From positions 1 to 62,355 of IMG/VR virus record IMGVR_UViG_3300009499_000010: a stretch of DNA of 62,355 nucleotides; one strand, given 5' to 3'. The notes beneath the pieces are model-generated. The model saw only the letters and a program-made list of their open reading frames with translations. It was not told the DNA's origin and searched no databases. A program made the position numbers and the translations under genes. Origin of the DNA: a virus (Duplodnaviria; Caudoviricetes). This document shows positions 7,272 to 24,026 of this stretch, piece after piece. How positions within the stretch are numbered: position 1 is the first letter of the stretch; each line of letters opens with the position of its first letter.

Positions 7272-7482
7272 CCTTGCTATTATAAATAGGATATGCATGG
7301 TGTGCGGTTTTGTATATCCGAGAGCGCTGAAGGAAGTCGAAAGTCATCTGCAGCATTGTCTCAATTGCGGCAGCGAAGATTATGAGCGCATAGACTCAGG
7401 CGAGAAATTTTTGCTGCTTGGAGTGGGCGATAAGAAAGAACTTGTCAATGTCAAGGAAGAGTTAAGAAAGCAGAGAGTATGA
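7264..7482 (+). CDS. Small zinc-ribbon protein
   Basis: CMVCG...CLNCGS; overlaps previous stop. Confidence 0.6.
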   Translation: MSSLAIINRICMVCGFVYPRALKEVESHLQHCLNCGSEDYERIDSGEKFLLLGVGDKKELVNVKEELRKQRV

Positions 7483-8714
7483 GTGACAGAACAGAACAAC
7501 AAGCAAGGGAAAGATAAGGGCAAGGCAAGACATAAAAGCGGCGCTGGGAGCAAATGCCATAAGGCAAGAAGTGCCGGGCACACATCACGCAGAGGCTATT
7601 AAGAGAGGCAAAGTCTAATGGGTGACAGAATAATAGAACACCAGTTGAGAAAACTTGCCGCTGGTGGCGAAGATGTAAATTCACTTGTTGCAGGCAAAAC
7701 ACAAATAGAAATAAAAGGACTTGACTTGATAAGGGCAAGCGAAGTTGACAAGAAGGCAAGAATCTTCTCAGAAGAGGCATTACAGAAAGCAGCAGAGAAG
7801 TTCAGCAAGGTAAGAAAGAACAGCAAGGAAGAAATTGAACAAGCAGAGAGAGAAGAGACAACACAAGAGAGAAACAAAGAGCCAGAAAGATAAGTAAGGA
7901 TAGAAGAGAGATAGGGGTAATGTTGACCAAGGGCATTGTAAGGGTAAGTAAGGTAAGTCAAGGCAAGGGACTTAATGTGGGTGATATTGGTTTGGTTGTA
8001 AAAACCAGTTTCTATGCAAGAGCACTTGCCCTATCAAAAAGCTGCTTGGTGTTACTTGCTTGCTTGTTTGCGCTCCTCTCAACTGGCCAAACCAACTTGA
8101 GAGAGGGAGAAAACCAACCTGCCAGAATAACCAGCGAGCGCCAACTTGTTTTACTCCCCCAACAACTTACACATACGCCAAAGTTGACACCACGTAGAGC
8201 CAAACCTAAGACCAATTTGACGTATTCTCCCACACTAAGAGAAAGAGCTACAGTAATTGAAAGCAAGACAGAGAGCATAGTAAGGAAGAAGAGGCTAACA
8301 CAGACAAACATAACAAGAATACTCCCTCAGCTGACTCGGAGCGCGTGTGCGTCTTTGGCGTTGTTTGGCGTTGTTTGGGGGAGTGCGTTGTTTCATTCAC
8401 ATGCGGCTGCGCGTAGTGTAAAGATAGGTCACGAAAATCCCCAGGGCAACTTTCACAACCAATCAGTTGCCGAGAAATTCAAGGAAAAAATATCTCCAAC
8501 TAACAGCTGGCGAGACGCACACATGCAATCGACTCATAAAAGTAAGCATAGTAGAACGAGCCATATAAGTGGCGCAAGGTATTGGGCCTTGGACATGCCA
8601 CTAAGGCAAGGAATTAAAAAGTGGGGCTGCGACAACTTGGATACTTATTTGAGTCTGTCCAGCCTCACTCCCTTTGGGGAAGATAGGCAAAGGTGCGTGT
8701 CCGCACTTGACACA

Positions 8715-8791
8715 GGGGATGTATTGGTTAGGCCGCGCATAAACCCGCATGCGGGAATGTGCTCCTGCGGGTTCGATTCCCGCCATCTCCA
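8715..8791 (+). ncRNA. tmRNA-like (tRNA-like domain only) RNA with alanine identity
   Basis: Acceptor stem GGGGATG/CATCTCC with G3-U70 and discriminator A; 13-nt stemless D region TATTGGTTAGGCC; T arm GCGGG-TTCGATT-CCCGC; no canonical anticodon loop; CCA not encoded. Confidence 0.75.
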
Positions 8792-8802
8792 GATAATAAG
8801 GC

Positions 8803-9261
8803 AAAGGCAGGTAGGCAGACAGATAGACAGGCAGATAGTTGAGGAGGTAGATATGATTGCCAAGTTGCATGACGAGATTAGTAGGAGTTGGTTGTTGTTT
8901 GACAACGTTAAGAGCGTCAAGAGGTTTGTTGGCAGATACAAACTTGACATGGAGCAGCGTCACAGAAAGGAAGAAGGGGAAGCTGAGAATGCTCCTGGGC
9001 TGTTAGTCGAGGAACTGCCGTATCAGAATCCAAAGCCAAATGATTGGAACCCACACCACATCTATCTTGATAAATTGATTCTTGTCCTGATAGAAAAAAA
9101 AGATTGGGACAGGAGCTTCAAAGTTGTCAGTCTGCTCATTGACAACGCAGATGGCACAGAAACCTGCAAGGTGCTTGGGTTCTCAACAGGATACTTGCTC
9201 AATGGAGATGGGAAGACAATTGAAACTCTGTAGGAGTTGAGGCAGTTGCCTACCTGCCTTT
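8803..9261. repeat. Perfect 15-bp inverted repeat flanking one gene (8803-8817 / 9247-9261)
   Basis: AAAGGCAGGTAGGCA and its exact reverse complement TGCCTACCTGCCTTT. Confidence 0.9.
8853..9233 (+). CDS. Hypothetical protein ending in YLLNGDGKTIETL
   Basis: GAGGAGGT RBS before ATG 8853; this is the credible part of the 7920..9233 ORF. Confidence 0.75.
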   Translation: MIAKLHDEISRSWLLFDNVKSVKRFVGRYKLDMEQRHRKEEGEAENAPGLLVEELPYQNPKPNDWNPHHIYLDKLILVLIEKKDWDRSFKVVSLLIDNADGTETCKVLGFSTGYLLNGDGKTIETL

Positions 9262-9280
9262 CAACTTGGAGAGGTAAAAG

Positions 9281-9682
9281 ATGGACAACGCTTTGAGAAG
9301 AATGATAGTTGCCGACCAAGTAAGAGAGTCATTGGCAGCTTTGGAACACGAGCAATGGGCGCATTGGATGCGTTATATGCTCGCCAACTTGACTCCTGAG
9401 AACATAGAGAAATGGAAAGAGCAAGCAGAGATTCCATATAATGCTTTGTCCGAGAAAGAAAAAGACAGCGACAGGGAATGGGCAGACAGAGCACTTGCGA
9501 CTATGCATAAGCTGAGTGAAGGCAAACTCAACATAGTGATAGAGATAGAAGGCGAGAAAGCAACAATCAAGCCTATTAGCTTGAGAGACGCAATGGACAT
9601 CGAGAAGGCGCAAGTAATAGAATTGGAATTTGCGAAAGAGCTGACGCCAACTTTCAAGCGTCAGCCTGACATAATCAGATAG
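9281..9682 (+). CDS. RyR-domain-like phage protein
   Basis: LAALEHEQW...PYNALSEKEKDSDR matches the RyR repeat signature. Confidence 0.65.
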   Translation: MDNALRRMIVADQVRESLAALEHEQWAHWMRYMLANLTPENIEKWKEQAEIPYNALSEKEKDSDREWADRALATMHKLSEGKLNIVIEIEGEKATIKPISLRDAMDIEKAQVIELEFAKELTPTFKRQPDIIR

Positions 9683-10502: not shown

Positions 10503-10778
10503 ATGGACAGGGCTCTGGCTATGGATAAGAGAGGTCGAATTCAAGAGAGCAAAGGGCAGAGGATTAAATGTCCTTACTGCGGAAGATGGCGCACCTATAA
10601 GGTCTATTGGACTGACGAGTATGGCAAGTTTGTCCACTGTCTTCACTGTACAGAGAAGATAAGAGAGGATTGGGAACTCAGCTTGTCTAACTCCGAGTTG
10701 AAGCGCGGAGAGTTCTGGTTGTACTTTGCACTTGCGATTATTCTTGCTGTCTTATTGTACTTGGTGCTTGGGCTATGA
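10503..10778 (+). CDS. Zinc-ribbon protein with C-terminal membrane anchor
   Basis: CPYC...CLHC plus hydrophobic tail; ATGA overlap with terminase. Confidence 0.65.
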   Translation: MDRALAMDKRGRIQESKGQRIKCPYCGRWRTYKVYWTDEYGKFVHCLHCTEKIREDWELSLSNSELKRGEFWLYFALAIILAVLLYLVLGL

Positions 10779-12571
10779 GCAAAGCAAAGACTCAATTTGA
10801 GAAACTTGCTGGAAGGGCAATGGAACTTCTGACTCCAGATGAGAAGGAAGAGTATGCCCGTATATTTGGCGAAGAGACTGTGACAACTCTTGTTGAGAAG
10901 ATGAGCTATACAGAGAGACGGCTGGACAGTTCTATTCGTGATAGATTGAGCAAGCCTATTAAGAATAGATTACAACTGCGTGACCTTCTTTGGGCCATGG
11001 CTGACTACACAGGATTGCCAAGAATCCCTACAGCGCCTGTTTGTGATAATCACTGTGCTCCTTTTGATTCGGTGAGCGCTGCCTTCTTCGGACACAGCCC
11101 CAACTACTTGAAGCATGCCAATCGCCACGGATATAAGACTATGGGCGATGCCTTCCTGATGTTTGTAGAATCTGTGATGTCAGGCGGTTGCAAGTCAAAG
11201 ATACTCGGAGGTTCTGGAACTCAGTCAAAGAATGTGTATGAATACATTCAGCTGCTTGATGATATTCCAGCTTGCCATGAATTGCTTCAGAACGTCTTTG
11301 TTCAGAAAGCACAATTCAGGAATCGCAGCGAAGTTTCAATGCTGACTCAATCAATGAAGTCTGTGCGTGGGCCACATCCACAGAAGTTAAGGCTTGACGA
11401 GATAGAGGAGTTTGACCCACAAGTATTCCGAGCAGCGCTGGCGACGACAAGGAGTTACGGCGGCGTGCCATCCTCCATAGGCATGGGAAGCACACACCAC
11501 AGGCGTTCAGGCATCATGGCTGAACTTCTGAAAGACCACACAAAGAGAGGCATTGCGCTGTTTCAGTGGTGTATCTTTGAAGTAATGGAACAGTGTAAGC
11601 AGAAGTCTTGTAAGATTTGCAAAGCAGTCAAGAAGAAGGATTATGAGGGCAATGAAGTTTCCTTCTATGACTTCTGTCAAGGGAAGGCCAAGAGGAGCAG
11701 AGGATATTATTCTTTGGCAGAGGTCTTGGAGAAATTCACGCTGCTCCCTCTTGAGGATTTCAAAGCAGAATGGCTTTGCCAGGCAGTGTCCCTGTCCGGC
11801 TATGTCTTCCCAAAGTTTGAAGCTGAAGAGGAAATGCTTCACGTATCCAGGCGAGCAGCATATGACCCAACCCTTCCAACAACAAGAACTTGGGACTTTG
11901 GCTGGAGTGGGGCAACTGTAATACTCTGGCTTCAAGTTGACGGGGATAGACAGAAGAGAGTAATTGACGAGCAATGGTTTGTCATGACACCTTTCCCAGA
12001 AATATGCAAGCAGATAAAAGCAAAGCTATATCAGTCAAGCACAGGAAGAGTTCTTGATTATGGCGACCCAGCAGTGAAGGGCGGCAAGGACAAAATTATT
12101 GGCATCGATGATTTAACATATCTGCGCTCGCAAGGATTTGATATCATCTCAAAGGCGTCAGGCATCCCGCAGGGCATCAGGCTTATCAATGAAGCACTTG
12201 AGCCAATTAACAACGCTTCGCAATTGATAGTCAATCCAATTTGCGAGCATTTGATTGAGTATCTGAAGGATGCGAAGTATCCAGTTGACGCACAAGGTCA
12301 GCCTGTTTCAGAGATTCCGATAAAAGACGGGAAGGAACACCCAGGTGATGCTTTACGCTATTGGTTTATTCACAATGAGGCACCTGTCGTTGCGCCAGCT
12401 TATGGTGGAAGGAATCCAGGTGACAAAATTGTTTTGAAGGAAGGTAAAAAGATTCTCGTACCAGCTGGAGGCGTAGCAAAGGAAGGGAAGCAACTTGTTG
12501 TTGCTGGCTCTGCTTCATTTGGATTCTTTCGCAACCAAATGCGCAGAAGATTTCTTGGATTGAGGGGTTAA
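10775..12571 (+). CDS. terL: Terminase large subunit
   Basis: Walker A-like ANRHGYKT, Walker B LRLDE, GST coupling motif, nuclease WDFG and HPGDALRY; upstream of portal. Confidence 0.9.
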   Translation: MSKAKTQFEKLAGRAMELLTPDEKEEYARIFGEETVTTLVEKMSYTERRLDSSIRDRLSKPIKNRLQLRDLLWAMADYTGLPRIPTAPVCDNHCAPFDSVSAAFFGHSPNYLKHANRHGYKTMGDAFLMFVESVMSGGCKSKILGGSGTQSKNVYEYIQLLDDIPACHELLQNVFVQKAQFRNRSEVSMLTQSMKSVRGPHPQKLRLDEIEEFDPQVFRAALATTRSYGGVPSSIGMGSTHHRRSGIMAELLKDHTKRGIALFQWCIFEVMEQCKQKSCKICKAVKKKDYEGNEVSFYDFCQGKAKRSRGYYSLAEVLEKFTLLPLEDFKAEWLCQAVSLSGYVFPKFEAEEEMLHVSRRAAYDPTLPTTRTWDFGWSGATVILWLQVDGDRQKRVIDEQWFVMTPFPEICKQIKAKLYQSSTGRVLDYGDPAVKGGKDKIIGIDDLTYLRSQGFDIISKASGIPQGIRLINEALEPINNASQLIVNPICEHLIEYLKDAKYPVDAQGQPVSEIPIKDGKEHPGDALRYWFIHNEAPVVAPAYGGRNPGDKIVLKEGKKILVPAGGVAKEGKQLVVAGSASFGFFRNQMRRRFLGLRG

Positions 12572-12572
12572 C

Positions 12573-14009
12573 ATGGGCAAGAAATTTGATTGGCTCTTGA
12601 GAAAGGCTGGGCTTCAGAGATTTCAAGAGCAAGTTCCAGCTCTGAGCTATGTTGACCCAGATGACTATTTGTATAGGCAATTGGGAGTGTCCAAGCAAGA
12701 CCTTACTCCATTTGTATGGGAGCGACACGAGAAGATAGCATATTACTTGTATCTCGTCAATCCTCTCTGCAATCGTATCATCGAGTTGACGAAAGACTAC
12801 ACAGTGAGCGCCGGAATTGAGTTCCAAGCCACGGATAGAAAAATCCAGAAATTGCTCCAGGATTTCTGGGATGACGAGATTAACAACATGGAGATGCGAC
12901 AGTTCCTAATGGCGCTGGAGATTGCATTGACAGGAGAGCAAGTCATCGTTCCAACTGTCAACAAATACAACGGCGCTGTAACCATCGAGATTCTTAACAA
13001 TCTTCAAGTAGCAAAGGTTTTGCAGAATCCAAAAAATCAGAACATTCCAGAGTATGTTGTCCTCAGACCTCTTCATGGCTTGACCATGGAAAATATGGAA
13101 GCGAAGAAACTCAAGATAGTTGGCAAAGACAGGAACCCAATGAATGACTCCTTTGGGCGTCTTGTTGGTGAGGTTTTCTTCTTTGCTGTCAACAAGGTCA
13201 CAAATGCAACTCGCGGCCACTCGGATGTTCTTTCTGTAATAGACTGGATAGAAGGTTACGATGAATTTCTCTACTCGGAAATGGAAAGAGCGCAAGCAAT
13301 GAAGGCGCATATCTGGGATGTGGAAATTGAAGGAGCAGACAAGCAAGCAATTGATGACTTCCTTCAGAAAGTTCCGCCACCAAGGCCAGGTTCAATTAGA
13401 GCGCACAACGAGAAGATAAAATGGGCTCCCCTAACACCAGACCTGAAAGCAGCTGACGCAACAGCGCAAGCAAGGCTTATTAGAACGCACATACTTGCTG
13501 GTGCCGGATTCCCTGAGACTTGGTTCTCGGAAGGCGGTAAGACAAACAGAGCGACAGCCGGAGAAATGGCATCGCCAACTCTCAGAAGTCTTGCGACAAG
13601 ACAAAAGTTTTTCAAGCATATGGTGAGGAGAATCTTCCAATTTGTAATTGACCAAGCGAAGATTCACAAAGCTATTCCAGAAGATGTAGATGAAACTTTC
13701 GTCATAGATATTCCTATGGTTGAGAGAGACACCAAAGATAAGGCTCAAGTGCTTGTAAGCATGACCAATGCTATGATGATTGCGCGAGAGAATGCTTGGA
13801 TTTCTGACGAAGAAGCAAAGGTGGTCTTCCAGCACTTCATGGGGCAGATGGGGATTGAGATTCAGAGATTGCGACAGCAATCAGGCAAGCCCAACGCTGA
13901 TGAAGTTCTTGACCCAGAGCGTATGAAGAAGCCAGATATGACAGAGGATTACATCTGGGCAATGGATAGATTCAAGGCGATGGTGAAAGCAGGGAAAGAG
14001 AGCGCATAG
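12573..14009 (+). CDS. Portal protein
   Basis: Size and position after terL; RGHSD, GFPETW..G..NRATA motifs typical of portals. Confidence 0.85.
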   Translation: MGKKFDWLLRKAGLQRFQEQVPALSYVDPDDYLYRQLGVSKQDLTPFVWERHEKIAYYLYLVNPLCNRIIELTKDYTVSAGIEFQATDRKIQKLLQDFWDDEINNMEMRQFLMALEIALTGEQVIVPTVNKYNGAVTIEILNNLQVAKVLQNPKNQNIPEYVVLRPLHGLTMENMEAKKLKIVGKDRNPMNDSFGRLVGEVFFFAVNKVTNATRGHSDVLSVIDWIEGYDEFLYSEMERAQAMKAHIWDVEIEGADKQAIDDFLQKVPPPRPGSIRAHNEKIKWAPLTPDLKAADATAQARLIRTHILAGAGFPETWFSEGGKTNRATAGEMASPTLRSLATRQKFFKHMVRRIFQFVIDQAKIHKAIPEDVDETFVIDIPMVERDTKDKAQVLVSMTNAMMIARENAWISDEEAKVVFQHFMGQMGIEIQRLRQQSGKPNADEVLDPERMKKPDMTEDYIWAMDRFKAMVKAGKESA

Positions 14010-16172: not shown

Positions 16173-19100
16173 ATGGAGCTTGCGAAAGTCAGCCCACAGT
16201 CTCTCCGAAAGGAGAGTAATTCAGCGCTGCTGAATATGCACTACCACACCCACATGCTCTATGAATGGTGGAAGAAGGGCAGAGACATTCCAATTGAGGA
16301 CGTGAAGAAAGCTCACGACCTTATAGTTGACGAGTTCGTCAAGAGAGAGATGGAGAAAGAAGGAGAACACAGGTCACCGATGGCGCTTCAAGAGCAAGAC
16401 TTGGCAAAAGTCTATCCTTCTGGCGAGAAGAAGGGCAAGAAGATTACACTCAAGAGCTTGCCGAAGTTTGGCGACTTCTATCTTGGGGACAGATTCATCT
16501 CGTTGGTTGGCTCATTGCCCAATAATGGAGAGACTGAGAATGACATTGACTTCTTGATAGCTTGGCCGGAAGATGCTCCAGACGAAATCACAAGACCTAT
16601 TAAGTTCAGACTTTGGCGGCAGTTTCAAGACCCAAAGCTGCAAGCACGATGCTCCTTCCATCTCGACAGCTTTCATGGCCCATTTACAAATTCAGTCCCG
16701 CTATATCGGCTCAAGTGTGAGAGGATAAACCATGACATGGATGTCATCCTTGCTGCTCTGAAACGAGAGCCAACAGCAATGGCCCAAGCAGGGCAATCGA
16801 AGAAGGCAGACAAGATTGAGCCAAGGCGGTTTTTCTATCCGCAAAAGGCAATCAAAGCGCTTGCCATACGCAAGAAGCTGAAAGGGCCATGGGACTATTC
16901 GGAAGCAGTCAAGGAAGCAGCTGCGATGCTTCCCGTTGTCGCAGAGAAGAAGTATGACGGGATGCGTATTATATTAAATAAGGATAACGGCTGGGTCAGG
17001 ATTATGACTGACGGTGGTACAGACGTCACGTCAAGGCTGCCTATGCTCGTTGCGCAGCTGAAGAAGATTCCGCATAAGTCATTTGTACTCGATGCAGAAC
17101 TGGAATGGTGGGAAGATGGAGTCCATCAACCAAGGGAAGAAGTTGCCGCAGCGCTGATGTCGAAAGAGGAGCTTGACGAGAGTTGGCTCATTGCTAATGT
17201 CTTTGAGCTTCTGTATCTTGATGGAAAAGACTTGCACAACTTGCCGTGGGGGGAGCGCCACGAGCAGCTCAAGAAGTTCCCAATCAAGAGAGAGCAACTT
17301 GAGTTCAAGGCAGACGATGAAATGTTGAACAGAGTTCCTTCCCTTATTGCCGAGAAGGAAGCAGACTTGGCAAAGCATATCAAGACTGTCTCGGAGGCAA
17401 AGGCATCAGAGGGAGCGATAATCAAGAGCGCAACAGCGCCTTATCCTCTGACTGGCGCAACAAAGCATATGGTCAAGGCGAAGAAATATGCGACTGTCTT
17501 TGGGAAGGTTATCAAACGCAACCCAACAAAGGTCGCAACTGTCTTCAACTATGACTACGCAATCAGGATTCCAGAAGCAAAAGTTGACCCAGCATCAGTC
17601 ATTGAGATTGGCGGGAAGAAGTATTCACGAACTGGGACTTCATACTCAACGACAGAGAAACTCAACCCAGGCGATGTCTTTGCTCTTTCCTTCCATACAG
17701 TCAACAAGTATACAGACCCAGAGACAGGGAAGGTCAGTGTTCATTTCTATGAGCCTGTGTATGATGGGAAGGTAGCAAGAACAGAGCCAAATACGCTCGC
17801 AGAGGTCGAAACAATTGCAAAGGATGCTGGGCTCATCGGATATAAGGAAGGCAAGCAGACCTTCCGAGAGAATGCTGAGACAATCTTCCTCAAGTTTCTC
17901 GGCACAAAAGGCGAAATTGAAGAAGAGTCACCAGGACACAAGAGACACACAGCTGTTCAAGTTGTTCATCTCGACCATGGCGGGCTGATTGACTTTGGAG
18001 AGACTTGGAAAGGGAAGTTGGACACTGTTCGGACAGCTGCGGAAGGAAGCATCAGGTGGATAGCGCTAACTCATGCTCACCCTGACCATGTTGGCGGGCT
18101 TGAAGGCGAAGAGATTGACATCCCAGTCTACATGACCGCTGAGACAGACAAGCTCCTTCCCAAAGACAAATATCCTATGAAGAATAGGATAATTGTGAAG
18201 GAAGGCAAGAAGGTCGAAGTTGCGCCTGGTTGGGATTTGACAGCTATCTCAGTTGAGCATTCTTCCAAAGCGCCAACTGTTGGCTTCAAGCTCGCAATTC
18301 CAAACAAGGAAGATAAGAGCTATACAATTGGCTACTTCCCAGATGTGGCAGACCTTGACGAAAGAGACTTGAGGGGCATCGACCTTTACATTGGCGATGG
18401 GGCATCGCCCACAAGGCCAATCCTGCGTGGTCAATCGCCGGAAGGCGAAGATGTTGGACATGCTTCGATGAAGCAGCAACTCAAATGGTGCCAAGACATG
18501 GGTGTCCATTCGGCTGCTTTCATACATCAAGGGAAGCAATCAGTTGAGACGGATGACCAGAAGATAATTGATTTGCTCCAACAGGCCTTCCCAAACAAGG
18601 AGATTCTGCTGCCTGATGATGGTGAAGTTCTGGCACTTCCTGAGCACGCGGTGAAGGATGGAGTTTATCTTGTGCCGCCACATGGCGAGTTATTTTGGAA
18701 TGGCGAGAAGGATTTGCTCATCAAAGCAAAAGAGTTCCACATCCTGTCGCAGCATCCGCACTTTCTTGCGTCTGACTTAGTGTATGGAATCATCAAGTTC
18801 AAACCGCCAGAGAAGATTACACTTGCTGAGTTTGCCAAGCTCCGAAACAGGCACCAAATCTCTGAGGCAGAAAGAAAGAAGTGGTGGCCGGACAAAGATG
18901 AACTATATGCGTATGAGATTGAGTCTTTCTTCCCGTGGCACACTCCGAAAAAATACCAATACATCAAAGGGGCACAAACCATCATCAAGAATCTGCAATT
19001 GGTTGAGACGGCGAAGAGAAACATTATGTTTGCCTCAACTGAGGAGTTGAAAGAGGTTGCATACATCCACTCGCGCAAGAAGTTTGCCGGAAGCATTGTC

Positions 19101-21410
19101 AACAAATTCCCGCAAGGCACAAAGGTTGTATTCGACCCAATGTGCGGCACAGCGTCTGTCTTAGTTGAGGCTGCAAGAAGAGGAATGGCAGTTGTTGGAA
19201 ACGACTTCAATCCATATGCCTATTTCTTTGCCAAAGGAATTTTTGAAGGCATTGGCCTTGACTCGGAAGATATGAAGGCGTTGCTTTTCCCGCCAGAGAG
19301 GGAAGGATGGTTCACGCTTCATTACAAAGGACAGCACCCGCAGAATAAAGTCTTGAGAGCGTTTGTGGACAGTGCTGTTCTCAATATCCAAGAGGCATTC
19401 AAAGGTAAGGAGAAGAAACACAACGCAGCAATGGCAGCTGTTGTCTCCTTCCTTGGGAGATTCTTCAGAGGCACGCACACAGGCATTGCTTCCAATTGGT
19501 ATTATCAGGATGTAGATAAGAGCAGAGCAATGCTGAGAAGCTCCATTCTTGAAGTGAATAACCTTATTCAGCAAATTGGCGGGAAGGGAACTATAACAAA
19601 TTTGGATGCATTCTCGATGGAAATTCCTGAGGCAGATGTTATTCTGCTTGACCCACCGATGCTGAAGAAAGGAATCTACAGGCCCGCACTCTCCGAGTAC
19701 AAGACGCGCAATTCAATCCTTATCCAAGACACATTCCGATACAACAAGAACTCAGCGAGAGATTTGGAGAGTTTGCTTGATAAGTTGGCGAAGAAGTGTA
19801 AGACTCTTGTTGTTGTCCCGGAAGATGAAAGTGAACTGGATTGGGAGAGCTTGCTTGCGAAGCGTAAGAAGAATGTCAAGAAATTCCAGATGTCCTACTT
19901 CAAGAAGATTCGCACACCAGGCGCAATCTCCTCTGTGAGCAAATCAAGGATTCAAAAGATGTTCTTGGCTGAGCAGGGTGACCCATATCTGCTCGTGCCG
20001 GATGAAGACAAGGCTCTCAAATATATGGTGCATCATCACTGGCGTGGAAAGGGCTGCCATGCCGATGTGAGATTTGATAGCAAGTTGAAAGGCATGCTCA
20101 TTGGTTGGACTCTTGACGACCTAATGCCTGGTATAGTTGCTGAGCCAGTCCTAACAGCCAAGGATGCTGTTCAAAAGGAAGCCAGCCCTGATAAGTATTT
20201 CAAGATAAACTGGAAGACAGGAATCTGGAAGAAGAGATTGAAAAAAGGCCAAACAACTCCTGTCAATGTTACAATAATGACGCAGAAGAAAGCGCCTGAG
20301 CCGATTGAGTGGATGACGTTTGAAGGAGTTGTCGAGCCAGGTCAGGTAGGAGCCACTAAGAATTTCCCAGGTGTATTTATTATAATAGATAAGGGCAAGA
20401 TTGAATACGGAGCGCAGAAACCATGGTCGCATGAATACTTCTTCAACGGGAAGGCGCTTGACTACAAGGTTGTGATGCGTCAACTGAAGGCAGATTTTGG
20501 TGAGGCGCTGAAAAAGGATAAGGCGCTCCAGCGGCATCTCATTCTTCATCCAGATTTGTTTGATGAAGAAGGTCTTGAAGAAAGCATCGGGGCAATGGAT
20601 AGGGAGCTGTTGGAATCTTTGCCTGATGAGCTGTTCAAAGATTGTTTTGTTGTTGAATCAAAGATGTTTATTGACAACTGCGAAGAGCAGCAAATCATCC
20701 CGCCATCAGAAGAGAAGGTATCAGGCGTCAAGTGGTTTACCATCAAGCCAATAGACCAGACGCCATATGTGCTCTCGGATGAAGCAGTGAAGAAAAAATG
20801 GATGCCGCCTTTGGGTAAGTCTGCTCTTCCGAAAGTCACGCGTGATGCTGTTCCAACGACGCTGAAGTATTGGAACGCAAAGAAACCAACAGAAGCGATG
20901 ATGATGCGTGATGAGTTGGTTGAGCTGCTGAAGAAAGATGAGATTGATTTGCCGAAGTATGACGAGCAGTTGAAGGAAGCGCAGCAAGGCAGGTACGTTC
21001 TCAACTACCATTGGTTTGCGAAAATAGGGCAGAAGAAGAGAGCAGGAGCCAGCGAGTTTCATTTTGACCTATTCCTGCTTGACGGGAAGAAGGAACACTT
21101 TGAGCTTGACCTTGACCCGCTGGAGCATGATACAGTCTCAGCTCATTCCCCAGATAAGGACATGGCACACGATGAGAAGTTGACTGGATTCATCAAGCCA
21201 GGAACCATACCAGGCAATCCTACAAAAGAAACTGGCTCATGGATTGAACCATGGGCAAGCGGCAAAATGCTTGTGCTCGACAGTAAACCTGATTTCAAAA
21301 AGATAAGATTCAGCGGAAAGTTAGAAGGCGTCTGGGTATTCAAAAGAGAGAGCCCAGAAGCGGATTTTTGGCAGGTAGAGAAGAGCCAAGCAGCTCCAGT
21401 CACGACGTAA
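16173..21410 (+). CDS. 1745-aa multi-enzyme protein: NTase, ATP-dependent DNA ligase, MBL-fold hydrolase, ASCH-like, adenine MTase-like, LigD-type 3'-phosphoesterase (x2)
   Basis: GS...DID; EKKYDG, LDAE, FELLYLDG, EGAIIK; THAHPDH; YLVPPHG; DPMCG...DPPM; HHHWRGKGCHADVRF...WMTFEG...IDKG; second YHWF...HFDL. Confidence 0.85.
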   Translation: MELAKVSPQSLRKESNSALLNMHYHTHMLYEWWKKGRDIPIEDVKKAHDLIVDEFVKREMEKEGEHRSPMALQEQDLAKVYPSGEKKGKKITLKSLPKFGDFYLGDRFISLVGSLPNNGETENDIDFLIAWPEDAPDEITRPIKFRLWRQFQDPKLQARCSFHLDSFHGPFTNSVPLYRLKCERINHDMDVILAALKREPTAMAQAGQSKKADKIEPRRFFYPQKAIKALAIRKKLKGPWDYSEAVKEAAAMLPVVAEKKYDGMRIILNKDNGWVRIMTDGGTDVTSRLPMLVAQLKKIPHKSFVLDAELEWWEDGVHQPREEVAAALMSKEELDESWLIANVFELLYLDGKDLHNLPWGERHEQLKKFPIKREQLEFKADDEMLNRVPSLIAEKEADLAKHIKTVSEAKASEGAIIKSATAPYPLTGATKHMVKAKKYATVFGKVIKRNPTKVATVFNYDYAIRIPEAKVDPASVIEIGGKKYSRTGTSYSTTEKLNPGDVFALSFHTVNKYTDPETGKVSVHFYEPVYDGKVARTEPNTLAEVETIAKDAGLIGYKEGKQTFRENAETIFLKFLGTKGEIEEESPGHKRHTAVQVVHLDHGGLIDFGETWKGKLDTVRTAAEGSIRWIALTHAHPDHVGGLEGEEIDIPVYMTAETDKLLPKDKYPMKNRIIVKEGKKVEVAPGWDLTAISVEHSSKAPTVGFKLAIPNKEDKSYTIGYFPDVADLDERDLRGIDLYIGDGASPTRPILRGQSPEGEDVGHASMKQQLKWCQDMGVHSAAFIHQGKQSVETDDQKIIDLLQQAFPNKEILLPDDGEVLALPEHAVKDGVYLVPPHGELFWNGEKDLLIKAKEFHILSQHPHFLASDLVYGIIKFKPPEKITLAEFAKLRNRHQISEAERKKWWPDKDELYAYEIESFFPWHTPKKYQYIKGAQTIIKNLQLVETAKRNIMFASTEELKEVAYIHSRKKFAGSIVNKFPQGTKVVFDPMCGTASVLVEAARRGMAVVGNDFNPYAYFFAKGIFEGIGLDSEDMKALLFPPEREGWFTLHYKGQHPQNKVLRAFVDSAVLNIQEAFKGKEKKHNAAMAAVVSFLGRFFRGTHTGIASNWYYQDVDKSRAMLRSSILEVNNLIQQIGGKGTITNLDAFSMEIPEADVILLDPPMLKKGIYRPALSEYKTRNSILIQDTFRYNKNSARDLESLLDKLAKKCKTLVVVPEDESELDWESLLAKRKKNVKKFQMSYFKKIRTPGAISSVSKSRIQKMFLAEQGDPYLLVPDEDKALKYMVHHHWRGKGCHADVRFDSKLKGMLIGWTLDDLMPGIVAEPVLTAKDAVQKEASPDKYFKINWKTGIWKKRLKKGQTTPVNVTIMTQKKAPEPIEWMTFEGVVEPGQVGATKNFPGVFIIIDKGKIEYGAQKPWSHEYFFNGKALDYKVVMRQLKADFGEALKKDKALQRHLILHPDLFDEEGLEESIGAMDRELLESLPDELFKDCFVVESKMFIDNCEEQQIIPPSEEKVSGVKWFTIKPIDQTPYVLSDEAVKKKWMPPLGKSALPKVTRDAVPTTLKYWNAKKPTEAMMMRDELVELLKKDEIDLPKYDEQLKEAQQGRYVLNYHWFAKIGQKKRAGASEFHFDLFLLDGKKEHFELDLDPLEHDTVSAHSPDKDMAHDEKLTGFIKPGTIPGNPTKETGSWIEPWASGKMLVLDSKPDFKKIRFSGKLEGVWVFKRESPEADFWQVEKSQAAPVTT

Positions 21411-21425: not shown

Positions 21426-24026
21426 GTGGTGAAGTTTACTGAACTGTTGACAGAGGCATCTGTCCTATTGATTGAGAAAGGGGGTGAGCAGGGAAGAGTA
21501 TGGGATGTTGTTCTGATTGATGTTGGTCTTTCTTTGAACAACAAGTTCTATCCGAAAGAGGTGTTGTCTGGGGCAAAGGACTTATTTGAGGGAAGTCAGT
21601 GTTTTGCCTATGAATTCAAGGCAGGAGCGCACGACAAGAATTACAACCACCTGCCTTGGAGAGTCAGACAAGTCATGCCAGATGGCCTTGCGCGCAATTT
21701 GGTTGGCGACTTCCGCAACGTTAGGTTTGGGGAATACACCTCACCAGAGGGAGACAAACGTCATGGGCTCCTTGCGGAGTTCCATTGCATTGAGGATTGG
21801 CTTCGACAGAAACTTGTCAATGCTTACAACAGCGGGAATCCGAGTATGCTTGGATTTTCAATTGATGCTGAAGGAATTGTTACAGACTATCCGCACAAAG
21901 GCCGGATAGTCAAGAAGGTAGTAAGCATTGAGAAAGTTCACGAAGTGACCGCTGTTACCAGCCCTGCGGCTGGTGGGAAGATTTTGCGTTTGGTTGCTTC
22001 AATAGAAGGAGCAGAAGTTATGGAAGAGCTGAAGAAAAAGCTCAAGGAGTTGTTCAGCAAGAACTTCCTGGAAGGGAAGTTGCTTGAGGGCATTGGAGAG
22101 CTGACCGAAGAGAAGATGGTTGAGCTTGTTGACAAGGCAGTCGAGAAGGCCGAAGAAGACAAGGAGCTGGTTGAGCAGTCCAAGCTACCTATCATTCTCC
22201 GTGCCCTGCGTGATGCGCTGAAAGGTGGCGACACCAAGAAGGCCATGACGATGGTTGACGACCTTATCAGCAACCTTGCCAAGTATCCTTATCCAGCGCC
22301 AGCAAAGGCTGCGGACATGATGGATAAGAAAAAGAAGTATCCTTATCCCAGCCCGGTGAAAGCCGGAGAAGGCAATGACGACAACAAGGGTAAGGTTGAC
22401 CCTGAGGCAGTCAAGAAGATGCAGGAGCAGCTGAAGAAGCTGGAAGAAGAAGAGGCAGAGAAGGCCAGAGTTGCCGATATCAAAAAGCTCATCTCGGAAG
22501 CTAAGTTGAGCAATGCCCAAAAGGCAGAACTTGAGACGGCTTGCGAGAAGGTTTCTGTTGAGGAAACCAAGAAGCTGGTTGAGAAGGCGCTCAAGGGCAA
22601 AGACCTTGCCGAAGATGAGACAGTGAAGGGCCTGAAAGAATCTGTCGCCAAGCTGCAAGAAGATGCCAAGAAAGACAGAGATGAGCTTCAGAAGATTCGC
22701 AAGGAAGAGCAGAAGGCGAAAGTCAAACTGCTCATCACCGAATCCAAGCTGCCCAAGCCTTTCCAGGAAAAGCTCGCAGAGCAGTTGGCTGAATCAAATG
22801 TTGAGGTAGCCACGAAACTCATCGAGTCTGAAAGAAAAGCTCTTGCTGCGATTGAGCAGTCAGTGGGCAGCGGCATAGCCGTTGCCAGGGCTGAGCTTCA
22901 GGAAAGCGAGAGAGACAAGTTCCAGCTGTCGATGGACGCAATGCTCGGCGTGCCTGTTGAGGGCAACGTTGCTCCGTTCAGAGGGATACAGCACGCATTC
23001 GCTGTAATCACTGGAAGGAGAGACTTTGAGGTCAGAGATGTGCTGGCTGAGGCTGTGATGTTTGTTCCTTCCTATATGAAGGAAGGGCAAGGCAGGAGCA
23101 GAGTGCTTGAGTCCCTCAAGACTTCAGACTTTGCGGAAATCCTTGGCGACTCAATCCACCGCAGAATGGTGCGGGAATACAAACTTGATGACCTGAATAC
23201 CTGGCGACAGCTCGTGTCAGAAATCAGCAACATCAAGGACTTCCGTGTCAATCCGCGCATGAGGATGGGTGGCTATGGAACGCTGCCGGAAGTTCCTGAG
23301 CAGGGAACTTACCAACCGCTGACTTCACCTACTGACGAGCAGGCAACCTTCCAAATCAAGAAACGTGGCGGTTTGGAAGACTTGACGATGGAGATGATTG
23401 CGAATGACGACATCGGCGCTCTGAAGAAGATTCCCATAAAACTCGGAAGAGCTGCTGTTCTGACTCTCTATCGCACCATCTTCGACATCCTCAGACTCAA
23501 CCCCACCATCTATGACACCAAGACACTGTTCCACGCTGACCACGCGAACACAGACACCAAGGTGCTGAGTTCTGATAACCTGATGCTTGTCAGGAAGGCC
23601 ATGCAGAAGCAGCAGCCTTACGGGCAGTCTGACGAGTTCTTGGGCATGATGAATGTTCCAGCACGTCTGGTTATTCCGCCAGACCTTGAGGATGTTGCAT
23701 TCCAGCTGCTGAAGTCAGCTGTGGAGGTTATCTCCAACAAGGATGCAACAGTTCCGAACATTCACTCAACATATCTCAAGGGCTACATCGTAGTGCCTTA
23801 CTGGACTGATGCAACAGACTGGGTTGCGGTAGCTGACCCCGCCATGATTAACACAATTGAGGTTGGGTTCTATCAAGGCAAGCAAGACCCAGAGCTGTTC
23901 GTTCAAGACCAGCCGAATGTAGGGTCAGTTTTCACAGCTGACAAAATAACCTACAAGATAAGGCACATCTGGGGCTTTGCTGTCCTGGATTACAGAGGAT
24001 TCTACAAGAACGTGGCGGCTGGATAG
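21426..24026 (+). CDS. Prohead protease - scaffold - major capsid protein (Mu gpT-like) fusion
   Basis: N-terminal SLNNKFYP, NH, GFSI, VTSPAAGG protease motifs; charged coiled-coil middle; capsid motifs IANDD.GAL, TLFHADHAN, LVIPPDLE, YKIRHIWG...LDYRG. Confidence 0.9.
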   Translation: MVKFTELLTEASVLLIEKGGEQGRVWDVVLIDVGLSLNNKFYPKEVLSGAKDLFEGSQCFAYEFKAGAHDKNYNHLPWRVRQVMPDGLARNLVGDFRNVRFGEYTSPEGDKRHGLLAEFHCIEDWLRQKLVNAYNSGNPSMLGFSIDAEGIVTDYPHKGRIVKKVVSIEKVHEVTAVTSPAAGGKILRLVASIEGAEVMEELKKKLKELFSKNFLEGKLLEGIGELTEEKMVELVDKAVEKAEEDKELVEQSKLPIILRALRDALKGGDTKKAMTMVDDLISNLAKYPYPAPAKAADMMDKKKKYPYPSPVKAGEGNDDNKGKVDPEAVKKMQEQLKKLEEEEAEKARVADIKKLISEAKLSNAQKAELETACEKVSVEETKKLVEKALKGKDLAEDETVKGLKESVAKLQEDAKKDRDELQKIRKEEQKAKVKLLITESKLPKPFQEKLAEQLAESNVEVATKLIESERKALAAIEQSVGSGIAVARAELQESERDKFQLSMDAMLGVPVEGNVAPFRGIQHAFAVITGRRDFEVRDVLAEAVMFVPSYMKEGQGRSRVLESLKTSDFAEILGDSIHRRMVREYKLDDLNTWRQLVSEISNIKDFRVNPRMRMGGYGTLPEVPEQGTYQPLTSPTDEQATFQIKKRGGLEDLTMEMIANDDIGALKKIPIKLGRAAVLTLYRTIFDILRLNPTIYDTKTLFHADHANTDTKVLSSDNLMLVRKAMQKQQPYGQSDEFLGMMNVPARLVIPPDLEDVAFQLLKSAVEVISNKDATVPNIHSTYLKGYIVVPYWTDATDWVAVADPAMINTIEVGFYQGKQDPELFVQDQPNVGSVFTADKITYKIRHIWGFAVLDYRGFYKNVAAG

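What the first reader, a model, noticed from the sequence alone, without database searches (positions are those of the whole stretch)
8715..8791. 77-nt mini-tmRNA: alanine tRNA-like domain with no message domain
Seen: ends match tmRNA (GGGGATGTATTGGTT... and ...GCGGGTTCGATTCCCGCCATCTCCA), with G3-U70, a 13-nt D region without a proper stem, and a P2-like helix GCGCAT/ATGTGC capped by CCCG-CATG-CGGG in place of the several-hundred-nt tag and pseudoknot region. The two GAC motifs normally at the SmpB-binding elbow read GCC and CCT, and AGG/CCT could pair. An alternative fold gives a CGCAT/ATGCG arm with an 8-nt loop lacking U33. Known: message-less tmRNAs exist in jakobid mitochondria; phage tmRNAs are normally full length. 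Inference: a decoy for SmpB, AlaRS or EF-Tu, an anticodon-less Ala donor, or a decoy against tRNA-targeting defences.
Basis: partly seen in the sequence, partly recalled or inferred. Interest (0 to 1): 0.82.

Follow-up and report, generated by a model that had tools for sequence, protein, structure and literature searches.

The report
Message-less mini-tmRNA in a phage
A 77-base phage RNA gene copies only the alanine-accepting, tRNA-like end of the bacterial ribosome-rescue RNA (tmRNA) and lacks its message; one phage was already known to carry such an RNA, and many uncultured phages do too.

Summary
Window 8715-8791 (+) has a perfect 7-bp acceptor stem with G3:U70, a canonical T arm, a stemless D region, and a P2-like helix closed by a 4-bp hairpin. 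There is no room for a tag message.

Its last 25 bases match 120 bacterial stretches exactly (capped scan). ARAGORN of these tmRNA and none tRNA.

A structural pattern scan of viral contigs (capped at 120 loci) found a family of about 63-92-nt elements with the same architecture:
- The Rfam tmRNA model hits 14 of 15 hand-picked members above its cut-off.
- A covariance model built without the window scores the window at 54.7 bits, against 35.4 or less for everything below the family, tRNAs included.
- Covariation is strong: 96.6% of cells paired against 67.7% when shuffled.

The same model finds the published "TLD-only" tmRNA of mycobacteriophage DS6A at 58.8 bits. Two papers cite work showing that such a molecule inhibits tmRNA in E. 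coli, perhaps by titrating SmpB. The kind is therefore known, and this is a new, divergent member. It swaps the junction's conserved GAC/GGAC motifs for Watson-Crick G-C pairs.

It has no close homologue, no expression data, and lies in an unexplained 311-codon stop-free frame. Function is inferred, not shown.

The parts
8715..8721 (+). Acceptor stem, 5' strand (element positions 1-7), with G3 of the G3:U70 pair
   Evidence: 7 of 7 pairs with 8784-8790. In the family alignment, pairs 5-7 covary.
8722..8734 (+). Stemless D-loop analogue (13 nt) with the GG at 8726-8727. It reads AGGCC where most family members read (U)CGAC.
   Evidence: 44 of 65 family members have GAC here, and the window is among the 21 that lack it.
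8735..8740 (+). P2-like helix, 5' strand
   Evidence: MFE. In the family, all 6 P2 pairs show compensatory changes.
8741..8743 (+). AAA internal loop, conserved in the family consensus
   Evidence: The model consensus shows 'uAAAa' at this place.
8744..8755 (+). Closing hairpin (4 bp plus a CAUG loop) that stands where tmRNA carries its pseudoknots and tag message
   Evidence: All 3 modelled hairpin pairs covary in the family. DS6A has a near-identical hairpin.
8756..8762 (+). Single unpaired A, then the P2-like helix 3' strand
8763..8766 (+). Junction linker UCCU, where 34 of 65 family members have GGAC
   Evidence: 62 of 65 members have A two bases before the T arm, and the window is one of the 3 without it; only the window has Watson-Crick G-C pairs at these columns.
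8767..8783 (+). T arm (5 bp, UUCGAUU loop)
   Evidence: It is part of the 25-mer identical to bacterial tmRNA 3' ends.
8784..8791 (+). Acceptor stem 3' strand with U70, and the discriminator A. CCA is not encoded.
   Evidence: 17 of 64 other family members encode CCA.
7920..8714 (+). Upstream stretch with no recognisable gene but no stop codon in the frame that continues through the element into the next gene. It is unexplained, and whether it belongs to the element is uncertain.
   Evidence: 0 stops against 28 and 17 in the other frames. 0 of 20000 shuffles are stop-free. The codon score is -0.045 per codon against +0.23 to +0.39 for real genes. There are no relatives or families.
8841..9233 (+). 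Shine-Dalgarno GAGGAGG (8841-8847) and the downstream 126-aa gene (ATG 8853), probably on the same transcript
   Evidence: codon score +0.278. No promoter-like or terminator-like site on the + strand lies between 8600 and 8850.

Best explanation
Window 8715-8791 is a gene for a message-less ('TLD-only') tmRNA. It belongs to the same family as the one described in mycobacteriophage DS6A.

Likely working, with each step marked as shown or inferred:
1. It is transcribed with its neighbours and cut out by the host's tRNA-processing enzymes: RNase P at 8714/8715, 3' trimming after A8791, then CCA addition. Inferred.
2. It folds into the upper half of a tRNA (acceptor stem and T arm) plus a long P2-like arm closed by a hairpin. 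Shown by covariation in the family.
3. G3:U70 and A73 make it a substrate for alanyl-tRNA synthetase. Inferred from established identity rules.
4. Having no resume codon or tag frame, it cannot complete trans-translation. Instead it competes with the host's tmRNA for SmpB, and possibly for AlaRS, EF-Tu and stalled ribosomes. That damps tagging and degradation of unfinished proteins during infection. Inferred from the cited E. coli experiment on a similar molecule.

This copy is a divergent member. The two non-canonical junction pairs, marked by GAC and GGAC in most members, are replaced by two G-C pairs. Its affinity for SmpB is therefore an open question.
For: Identity of the ends:
- The 3' 25-mer is exact in 120 genome stretches (capped). 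ARAGORN tmRNA and 0 tRNA.
- The tmRNA model scores 35.2 bits across model positions 1-374, higher than the tRNA model's 28.0.

The family:
- A pattern scan of viral contigs gave 120 loci (capped) holding 121 instances. ARAGORN did not of them tRNA, and these make 78 unique sequences.
- RF00023 exceeds its cut-off in 14 of 15 loci picked by eye, at 48-74.5 bits.
- Model R1 was built from 14 members without the window. It gives the window 54.7 bits, E 9e-12, as the only hit in 62 kb.
- Over 79 sources, 65 hits score 41.3 bits or more and everything else 35.4 or less, known tRNAs included.

Structure, on 65 sequences:
- 96.6% of cells pair against 67.7% in shuffles.
- The covariation score is 0.645 against 0.124 (0 of 500 shuffles reach it) and 0.082 or less for slid partners.
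- 15 of 21 pairs show compensatory changes, including all 6 P2 pairs.

Precedent:
- R1 finds the DS6A element at JN698994 28478-28557 with 58.8 bits.
- Passages in PMC4131195 and PMC11915505 state that DS6A has a TLD-only tmRNA. They also state that such a molecule, chargeable or not, strongly inhibits tmRNA in E. coli, perhaps by titrating SmpB. Both cite Mao et al. 2009, which I could not read.

Other points:
- No phage SmpB was found in the window's record or in 4 other records, so a host partner is needed.
- In three records at least 99% complete, the mini is the only tmRNA-like gene.
- All 22 helix pairs of the window's copy are intact, which argues against decay.
- An independent contig of the probable source run covers 7600-9400 without a difference.
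Against: - The element does not reach Rfam's curated cut-off for tmRNA (35.2 against 47) or for tRNA (28 against 29).
- It lacks the conserved junction. It is among the 21 of 65 members without GAC in the D loop and is 1 of only 3 of 65 without the A two bases before the T arm.
- Its G-C pairs at those columns are unique in the family.
- Bacterial tmRNAs with the same 3' end keep GGAC: every pre-T-arm stretch printed, and 8 of the 9 uncalled ones.
- No second copy of this variant was found: 0 in viral contigs and 0 in metagenome contigs.
- The nearest relative phage (TerL 79% identical) has no such element.
- CCA is not encoded, and no promoter-like or terminator-like site flanks the element on its strand.
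- It lies inside a 311-codon stop-free frame.
- The family was collected with a pattern that fixed GGGG, GGTT, most of the T loop and CTCCA. Invariance at those places is therefore no evidence.
- The functional precedent is known to me only through two citing passages.
Confidence: 0.6

Rival explanations
1. Tag-less rescuer. The Ala-charged mini-tmRNA, with host SmpB and EF-Tu, enters stalled ribosomes and accepts the nascent chain. The ribosome is then freed by a back-up factor or by peptidyl-RNA drop-off. Phage translation capacity is restored without marking products for proteolysis.
For: - The anatomy is the same as for the best explanation.
- Alanine identity elements are intact.
- Message-less tmRNAs persist in mitochondria and some plastids, where the authors of PMC11915505 suggest they still help with incomplete mRNAs (passage read).
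- Some members sit inside late, highly expressed head modules.
Against: - The cited experiment reports inhibition whether or not the molecule can be charged, which points to titration rather than catalysis.
- There is no resume codon or stop, so the ribosome would be stalled again.
- The SmpB-platform motif is lost in this copy.
Confidence: 0.13
2. Cis-acting punctuation. The tRNA-like fold serves mainly as an RNase P / RNase Z cleavage signal that cuts a polycistronic phage transcript and sets the stability of the flanking messages. The released RNA is then a by-product.
For: - No promoter-like or terminator-like site lies next to the element on its strand.
- In two lineages the mini sits in short gaps inside operons. 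In one it is 84-201 nt after TerL and 53-58 nt before portal. In the other it is 6-282 nt after the prohead protease and 103-123 nt before the major capsid gene.
- The window's copy lies 61 nt before a gene with a strong ribosome-binding site.
Against: - Any tRNA-like fold would do for cleavage. Yet the family keeps tmRNA-specific features such as the stemless D loop, GAC/GGAC in most members, and the AAA plus hairpin.
- Neighbours are diverse overall: at least 10 of the 42 downstream and at least 10 of the 42 upstream ORFs scanned are head-module genes.
- 13 of 64 members lie in tRNA clusters.
Confidence: 0.1
3. Decaying or accidental remnant. The element is a captured piece of a tmRNA gene, or an attachment-site remnant, that no longer does anything in this phage.
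For: - The junction motif is lost.
- The nearest relative lacks the element.
- No other copy of the variant exists in the collections scanned.
- It sits in an odd 930-nt stretch without a recognisable gene.
- tmRNA genes are common integration sites (passages in PMC10865867).
Against: - All helices are intact, and the junction change is a paired swap to G-C rather than random damage.
- An attachment core would hold only the 3' part of the gene, but here the 5' strand and D loop are present too.
- No integrase or resolvase domain is found in the 62 kb, although the record is only 56% complete.
- DS6A integrates at a tRNA-Lys site, not through its TLD (table read in PMC10865867).
Confidence: 0.1
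4. Decoy or trigger in defence conflicts. The RNA distracts or engages host systems that recognise tRNA-like or tmRNA-like RNAs, such as anticodon nucleases, RNase R, or restriction systems carrying SmpB-like domains. The ribosome-rescue machinery is not the target.
For: - The SmpB-type junction has been remodelled while the rest is kept, which fits a change of partner.
- Host defence systems with SmpB-like domains have been predicted (CoCoNuTs; passages read in PMC10542128, and PMC11090510).
Against: - No defence or anti-defence gene was recognised beside the element.
- There is no anticodon loop for anticodon nucleases to cut.
- The link is purely conjectural.
Confidence: 0.05
5. An unusual but decoding tRNA, for example a frameshift suppressor that uses the alternative arm with an 8-nt loop.
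For: The tRNA model scores 28.0 bits, one bit under its cut-off. The alternative 5-bp arm can be drawn.
Against: - ARAGORN finds no tRNA.
- The Rfam alignment needs a 2-nt 'anticodon loop'.
- The alternative arm pairs in 38.9% of family cells against 45.7% in shuffles; 500 of 500 shuffles do as well.
- There is no U33 and no D stem.
- The 3' end matches tmRNAs and no tRNA.
Confidence: 0.02

Closest known systems
TLD-only ('standard, no CDS') tmRNA of mycobacteriophage DS6A (Mao et al. 2009, as cited in PMC4131195 and PMC11915505)
   Same: - Phage-borne and about 80 nt.
- Acceptor stem with G3:U70 and A73, stemless D loop, P2 helix, AAA, a short hairpin of nearly the same sequence, and a T arm.
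- Both are found by the same covariance model: DS6A 58.8 bits and the window 54.7 bits.
   Different: - DS6A keeps CGAC in the D loop and an AC before the T arm. The window has AGGCC and UCCU, with G-C pairs at the junction.
- The genomic settings differ. In DS6A the element lies between gp33 and a DNA polymerase III gene. In the window it lies upstream of the packaging module.
- No experiment exists for the window's copy.
Full-length and two-piece (permuted) phage tmRNAs, for example in Stenotrophomonas Menderavirus phages and Synechococcus phage S-CRM01
   Same: The tRNA-like ends are the same. The Stenotrophomonas phages share the window's 3' 25-mer exactly.
   Different: They carry a tag reading frame and are permuted, as read directly. 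R1 scores them under 30 bits. The window has only 22 nt between the P2 strands.
Message-less organellar tmRNAs (jakobid/oomycete mt-tmRNA, Rfam RF02544; about 65-bp plastid forms)
   Same: They have no tag reading frame, and only the tRNA-like part is kept (passage in PMC11915505).
   Different: They are usually permuted and organellar, and they work with a nucleus-encoded SmpB. RF02544 gives no match to the window at E<=10.
tRNA-Ala
   Same: G3:U70, the A73 discriminator and a canonical T arm. The tRNA model scores 28.0 bits.
   Different: The element has no D stem, no anticodon loop and no ARAGORN call. Its 3' 25-mer is found in tmRNA genes only: 111 tmRNA and 0 tRNA.

Membership tests
TLD-only phage tmRNA (DS6A type) | tRNA-like domain of tmRNA: 7-bp acceptor stem with G3:U70, A73, T arm, and a D loop without a stem | tested here: met
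   The 3' 25-mer lies in tmRNA genes only.
TLD-only phage tmRNA (DS6A type) | No mRNA-like domain: the P2 helix is closed directly by a short hairpin | tested here: met
   Only 22 nt lie between the P2 strands. ARAGORN finds no tag.
TLD-only phage tmRNA (DS6A type) | Scores with a family covariance model above the tRNA background | tested here: met
   R1 was built without the window. The window scores 54.7 bits, DS6A 58.8, family members 41.3-90.8, and everything else in the same loci, tRNAs included, 35.4 or less.
TLD-only phage tmRNA (DS6A type) | Typical but not universal: GAC in the D loop and (G)GAC before the T arm, the junction of non-canonical pairs | tested here: not met
   44 of 65 members have GAC in the D loop and 62 of 65 have A two bases before the T arm. 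The window has neither. It has G-C pairs there, unique in the family.
TLD-only phage tmRNA (DS6A type) | Binds SmpB and/or inhibits host trans-translation; can be charged with alanine | not testable with these tools
   Known only from citing passages on a similar molecule.
tmRNA proper (Rfam RF00023) | Curated gathering score of 47 bits | tested here: not met
   35.2 bits over model positions 1-374. No hit at gathering.
tmRNA proper (Rfam RF00023) | Resume codon, tag reading frame with a stop, and pseudoknots | tested here: not met
   There is no room for them. ARAGORN finds no tmRNA.
tRNA (Rfam RF00005 / cloverleaf) | Gathering score of 29 bits, a D stem, and a 7-nt anticodon loop with U33 | tested here: not met
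   28.0 bits, with a 2-nt 'loop' in the alignment. ARAGORN finds none. The alternative arm is unsupported in the family.
mt-tmRNA (Rfam RF02544) | A match to the family model | tested here: not met
   No match at E<=10.
Phage attachment site in a tmRNA gene | Only the 3' part of the gene is present, next to an integrase | tested here: not met
   The 5' acceptor strand and D loop are present. PF00589 and PF00239 give no hit in the 62 kb, although the record is only 56% complete.

The most novel reading that the evidence does not exclude
The window's copy is not just another SmpB sponge. Its SmpB-platform pairs have been swapped for Watson-Crick pairs, and it ends a 311-codon frame that has no stop codon. 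RNase P cutting at its 5' end would therefore leave a programmed non-stop message. The fate of that message's product, tagged for destruction or spared, would depend on the state of trans-translation, which the released mini-tmRNA itself modulates. That would make a self-contained phage switch built on ribosome rescue. Separately, message-less tmRNAs would be a common phage strategy rather than the single known case.
Probability: 0.06. Interest if true: 0.8.

Novelty: new member of a known kind. Interest (0 to 1): 0.55.

Why it matters
Trans-translation is the main ribosome-rescue path of bacteria. In the papers I could read, a phage RNA that carries only the tRNA-like half of tmRNA is documented for one phage, DS6A. 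The 2025 tmRNA database counts 9 'standard, no CDS' sequences in all and 79 phage tmRNAs.

Here a capped scan of uncultured viral contigs already gives 64 distinct members besides the window, with strong covariation. Interference with ribosome rescue, or hijacking of it, may therefore be a regular part of phage biology.

These genes escape ARAGORN and often fall near or below Rfam cut-offs, so they go unannotated. DS6A's own copy is unannotated in its GenBank record.

The window's copy adds a natural variant in which the junction's non-canonical pairs are replaced by G-C pairs. That makes it a ready-made test of what SmpB, AlaRS and the ribosome need from the tRNA-like domain.

Tried and rejected
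Finders
- ARAGORN found nothing in the window or in L002.
- Rfam found nothing at gathering scores.
- An Rfam evalue scan of 7400-8720 gave only chance-level hits.

Expression
- The look-up of sequencing runs listed one DNA run, a subsurface metagenome that is probably the source, and no RNA holder.
- Read laying showed only that one 26-kb contig of that run covers 7600-9400 without a difference. This is the same data as the window's assembly, so it is not independent.

Close relatives
- blastn of 7900-9300 against phage records gave no match.
- The exact-ends pattern gave 0 in viral contigs.
- The 126-aa neighbour protein has no relative in viral contigs.
- TerL has one relative in viral contigs at 79% identity and one distant, 29% identical relative on a 2.7-kb metagenome contig.
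- Variant-specific patterns gave 0 in viral contigs and 0 in metagenome contigs.
- The relative G001 has no tRNA, tmRNA or R1 match.
- Its positional counterpart of gene 8853-9233 matches only over 21 C-terminal residues (E 4e-5 for the single comparison). The synteny argument is therefore weak.

Isolated phages
- blastn with the window's element and two family members found only T-arm/acceptor halves.
- The cases I opened were two-piece tmRNAs or tRNA clusters: Stenotrophomonas Marzo and Bhz51, S-CRM01, GodonK, S-CAM1 and a faecal contig. R1 scored them all under 30 bits.
- I could not scan the isolate collection with the model.

The upstream stretch
- No Pfam or PHROG family was found.
- No relative turned up among 946 candidates in the length band 145-464 aa only.
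- There was only a chance-level match to G001's upstream ORF.
- A family-wide test for stop-free frames running into the element was negative. The median is 30 codons against 85 at random places, and only the window exceeds 250 codons.

Other checks
- Alternative folds were rejected on the family alignment.
- No SmpB was found.
- No integrase or resolvase was found.
- The ACTTGACA motif just before the element occurs 7 times against 2.78 expected, and 1 of 100 shuffles reaches 7. I did not pursue it.

Literature
- Searches found no description of a phage family of message-less tmRNAs beyond DS6A. 'mini-tmRNA' returned 0 papers.
- Mao et al. 2009 is not held, so I know it only through the citing passages.
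Table S2 of PMC11915505 may list further CDS-less phage sequences.
Full report
WHAT IS THERE

The window is an IMG/VR virus record of 62,355 bases, linear and estimated 56% complete. It is a tailed phage with all recognisable genes on the + strand: large terminase at 10775-12571, portal at 12573-14009, and a head protease/major head fusion at 21426-24026.

- A 7-bp acceptor stem with G3:U70, followed by an A discriminator.
- A 5-bp T arm with a UUCGAUU loop.
- A 13-nt D region without a stem.
- A 6-bp helix, an AAA/A internal loop, and a 4-bp hairpin with a CAUG loop.

The minimum-energy fold shows this architecture. Its energy is only modestly better than shuffles (-33.1 against -25.95 +/- 3.16 kcal/mol; 5 of 200 shuffles fold as well). 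A pattern encoding the anatomy matches once in the window and in 0 of 100 shuffles.

The standard finders miss it:
- ARAGORN finds nothing.
- Rfam finds nothing at gathering scores.
- Below cut-off, the tRNA model gives 28.0 bits against 29 and has to align a 2-nt 'anticodon loop'.
- The tmRNA model gives 35.2 bits against 47 over model positions 1-374.
- The mitochondrial tmRNA model gives nothing.

tmRNA ENDS, NOT tRNA ENDS

- ARAGORN calls a tmRNA over 111 of them, a tRNA over none, and nothing over 9.
- The 9 also end like tmRNAs. Eight have GGAC and one has AGAC before the T arm, and several are cut by contig or locus ends.
- The best 5' matches, 18 of 26 bases, are tmRNAs of Oscillospiraceae-type genomes. 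They share the first nine bases and have GGUU at the same distance.
- blastn of the flanks against these loci extends no further than the 25 bases.

The element is therefore not a piece of host DNA with its surroundings.

A FAMILY IN UNCULTURED PHAGES

I wrote a pattern that fixes only these features: GGGG, a GGTT 5-9 bases later, most of the T loop, and NNNCTCCA. It allows 25-55 bases in between, so full-length tmRNAs and ordinary tRNA-Ala should be excluded.

Collection
- Of the 121 instances, ARAGORN called 28 ordinary tRNAs (Ala, Tyr and others) and left 93 uncalled.
- The 93 comprise 78 unique sequences, and 83 of the 93 have 7 of 7 acceptor pairs.

Shared features the pattern did not impose
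- A stemless D loop, usually ending CGAC.
- A 5-8-bp helix.
- An A-rich internal loop.
- A 3-4-bp hairpin, often CCGCAYGCGG.
- GGAC just before the T arm.

Tests of the family
- Rfam's tmRNA model exceeds its cut-off on 14 of 15 loci that I picked by eye (48-74.5 bits), with about 300 internal model positions skipped. The fifteenth scores 46.9.
- I aligned 14 members with equal D-loop length, without the window. RNAalifold gave the expected structure, with 12 of 21 pairs compensated. I built model R1 from that alignment.
- Over the window plus the 78 loci holding the unique sequences, R1 gives 65 hits of 41.3-90.8 bits. After a gap, everything else scores 35.4 or less, including known tRNAs at about 30 bits.
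- On the 65-sequence alignment, 96.6% of cells form standard pairs against 67.7% in shuffles.
- The covariation score is 0.645 against 0.124 (0 of 500 shuffles reach it) and 0.082 or less when partners are slid.
- 15 of 21 pairs show changes on both sides, including all six pairs of the P2 helix and all three modelled hairpin pairs.

Caveats
- The alignment is fitted to the model.
- Four acceptor pairs and two T-arm pairs are invariant by construction of the pattern.
- Many sequences are related.

THE WINDOW'S COPY IS A MEMBER, AND AN OUTLIER

R1 never saw the window. It scores 8715-8791 at 54.7 bits, E about 1e-11, full length, as the only hit in 62 kb.

The copy differs at the junction between the D loop and the P2 helix:
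- 44 of 65 members have GAC in the D loop.
- 34 have GGAC, 52 have AC, and 62 have an A two bases before the T arm.
- The window has AGGCC and UCCU, and is one of only three members without that A.

In the model-guided alignment, the G-A and A-G positions of the consensus are occupied in the window by G-C and G-C. Those columns form standard pairs in only 15.6% of family cells, and the window supplies the only G-C at the middle one.

From memory, not from a call: in tmRNA these positions form non-canonical purine pairs at the elbow that SmpB contacts. All 22 helix pairs of the copy are intact.

WHAT IS ALREADY KNOWN

Full-text searches for phage mini, truncated or message-less tmRNAs found nothing of the sort. 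They did find two papers of the tmRNA database group.
- PMC4131195 lists 'Mycobacterium phage DS6A (TLD only)'. It states that the sequence is little more than the TLD, and that a similar molecule, chargeable or not, strongly inhibits tmRNA, perhaps by titrating SmpB (passages read).
- PMC11915505 repeats that the DS6A form inhibits endogenous tmRNA when expressed in E. coli. It counts 9 'standard, no CDS' and 79 bacteriophage sequences among 97,179 (passages read).
- Both cite Mao et al. 2009, which is not held.

I fetched the DS6A record. R1 finds one hit, at 28478-28557, with 58.8 bits. It lies between gp33 and a DNA polymerase III gene and carries no annotation there. Its AAA and hairpin are nearly those of the window.

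DS6A integrates at a tRNA-Lys site (table read in PMC10865867), so its TLD is not its attachment site.

The kind is therefore known and has an experimentally suggested mechanism. What I did not find in print is that it forms a large family in uncultured phages.

SURROUNDINGS

In the family
- 13 of 64 members lie within 500 nt of an ARAGORN tRNA.
- 17 of 64 encode CCA, and 56 of 64 have a C after the discriminator.
- Neighbours are diverse.
- Two lineages carry the gene inside the head module. One places it between the large terminase and portal (5 loci). The other places it between the prohead protease and the major capsid gene (5-6 loci), with gaps of about 50-280 nt.
- No SmpB gene was found in the window's record or in four other records, three of them at least 99% complete.
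- In those three records the mini is the only tmRNA-like gene.

In the window
- The element stands alone, with no tRNA in 62 kb.
- It lies 61 nt before a gene with a strong ribosome-binding site.
- It has no promoter-like or terminator-like site beside it on its strand.
- The only near relative phage (TerL 79% identical) has no such element anywhere in its 68 kb.
- No other copy of this variant exists in the viral or metagenome collections at the stringency of my patterns.
- No integrase or resolvase domain is present.

HOW IT MOST LIKELY WORKS

Shown
- The fold, by family covariation.
- Descent from tmRNA.
- The absence of any message.

Inferred from established tRNA and tmRNA biology
- Excision by RNase P and 3' processing, followed by CCA addition.
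- Alanylation through G3:U70 and A73.

Inferred from the cited experiment
- Competition with host tmRNA for SmpB, and perhaps for AlaRS, EF-Tu and stalled ribosomes. That would lower tagging during infection.

I give this 0.6 overall. Identity as a TLD-only tmRNA is about 0.9, but the mechanism for this particular copy is much less certain because of the remodelled junction.

Rivals
- Productive tag-less rescue: 0.13.
- A cis-acting processing signal: 0.10.
- A dead remnant: 0.10.
- A decoy in defence conflicts: 0.05.
- A decoding tRNA: 0.02.

UNEXPLAINED

The frame that starts at ATG 7920 runs without a stop through the element and into the downstream gene, ending at 9233.
- Over 7920-8852 it has 0 stops, against 28 and 17 in the other two frames.
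- None of 20,000 shuffles is stop-free.
- Its codon score is near zero (-0.045 per codon), between real genes (+0.23 to +0.39) and off-frames.
- It has no family and no relative.
- The rest of the family does not show this. The median open run into the element is 30 codons, and only the window exceeds 250.

If RNase P cuts at 8714/8715, any message translated in this frame would lack a stop codon. I record this as a low-probability but interesting reading.

VERDICT

The kind is already known from one phage. This is a new and divergent member of what turns out to be a sizeable phage family.

No expression or binding data exist for it. The primary paper on the precedent and all supplementary tables were out of reach.

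Noticed in passing
window 7920-8852 (open frame runs to 9233): A 311-codon stretch has no stop in one frame (28 and 17 stops in the others; 0 of 20000 shuffles are stop-free). Its codon usage is weak, and it has no relatives or domains. It runs through the RNA element in frame with the next gene.
   Followed up: partly
IMG/VR loci L125, L135, L192, L233, L237 and L130, L137, L146, L163, L180, L189: In two phage lineages the mini-tmRNA sits inside the head-assembly operon. In one it lies between the large terminase and portal. In the other it lies between the prohead protease and the major capsid gene.
   Followed up: partly
L250 (JN698994) 28478-28557: The published TLD-only tmRNA of mycobacteriophage DS6A carries no feature in its GenBank record. 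It lies between gp33 and the DNA polymerase III gene.
   Followed up: yes
L244 (MZ326868) 636-1010 and L245 (OR797040) 636-1009: Stenotrophomonas Menderavirus phages carry a two-piece (permuted) tmRNA whose annotated span overlaps the neighbouring tRNA-Thr feature and, in L244 only, tRNA-Leu. Its 3' piece shares the window's 25-mer exactly.
   Followed up: partly
window 16173-21410: A 1745-aa ORF between the head-morphogenesis gene and the protease/capsid gene has weak matches to ATP-dependent DNA ligase, a metal-dependent hydrolase and DNA methyltransferase families.
   Followed up: no
window 8800-8850 and L003 1500-1545: A purine-rich stretch of GGCA/GACA-like repeats precedes the 126-aa gene. 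A similar stretch precedes its positional counterpart in the related phage (74% identity over 48 nt, E 0.029).
   Followed up: no
window 8705-8712 and six other places: ACTTGACA occurs 7 times against 2.78 expected (1 of 100 shuffles reaches 7). One copy ends two bases before the RNA's first G.
   Followed up: no
L143 3208-3288: The same contig that holds an 80.5-bit member has a second, weaker match to the family model at 34.7 bits.
   Followed up: no
L194 4019-4081: The shortest family member is 63 nt. Its P2 helix is closed directly by a tetraloop with no inner hairpin, yet it still scores 60.8 bits.
   Followed up: no
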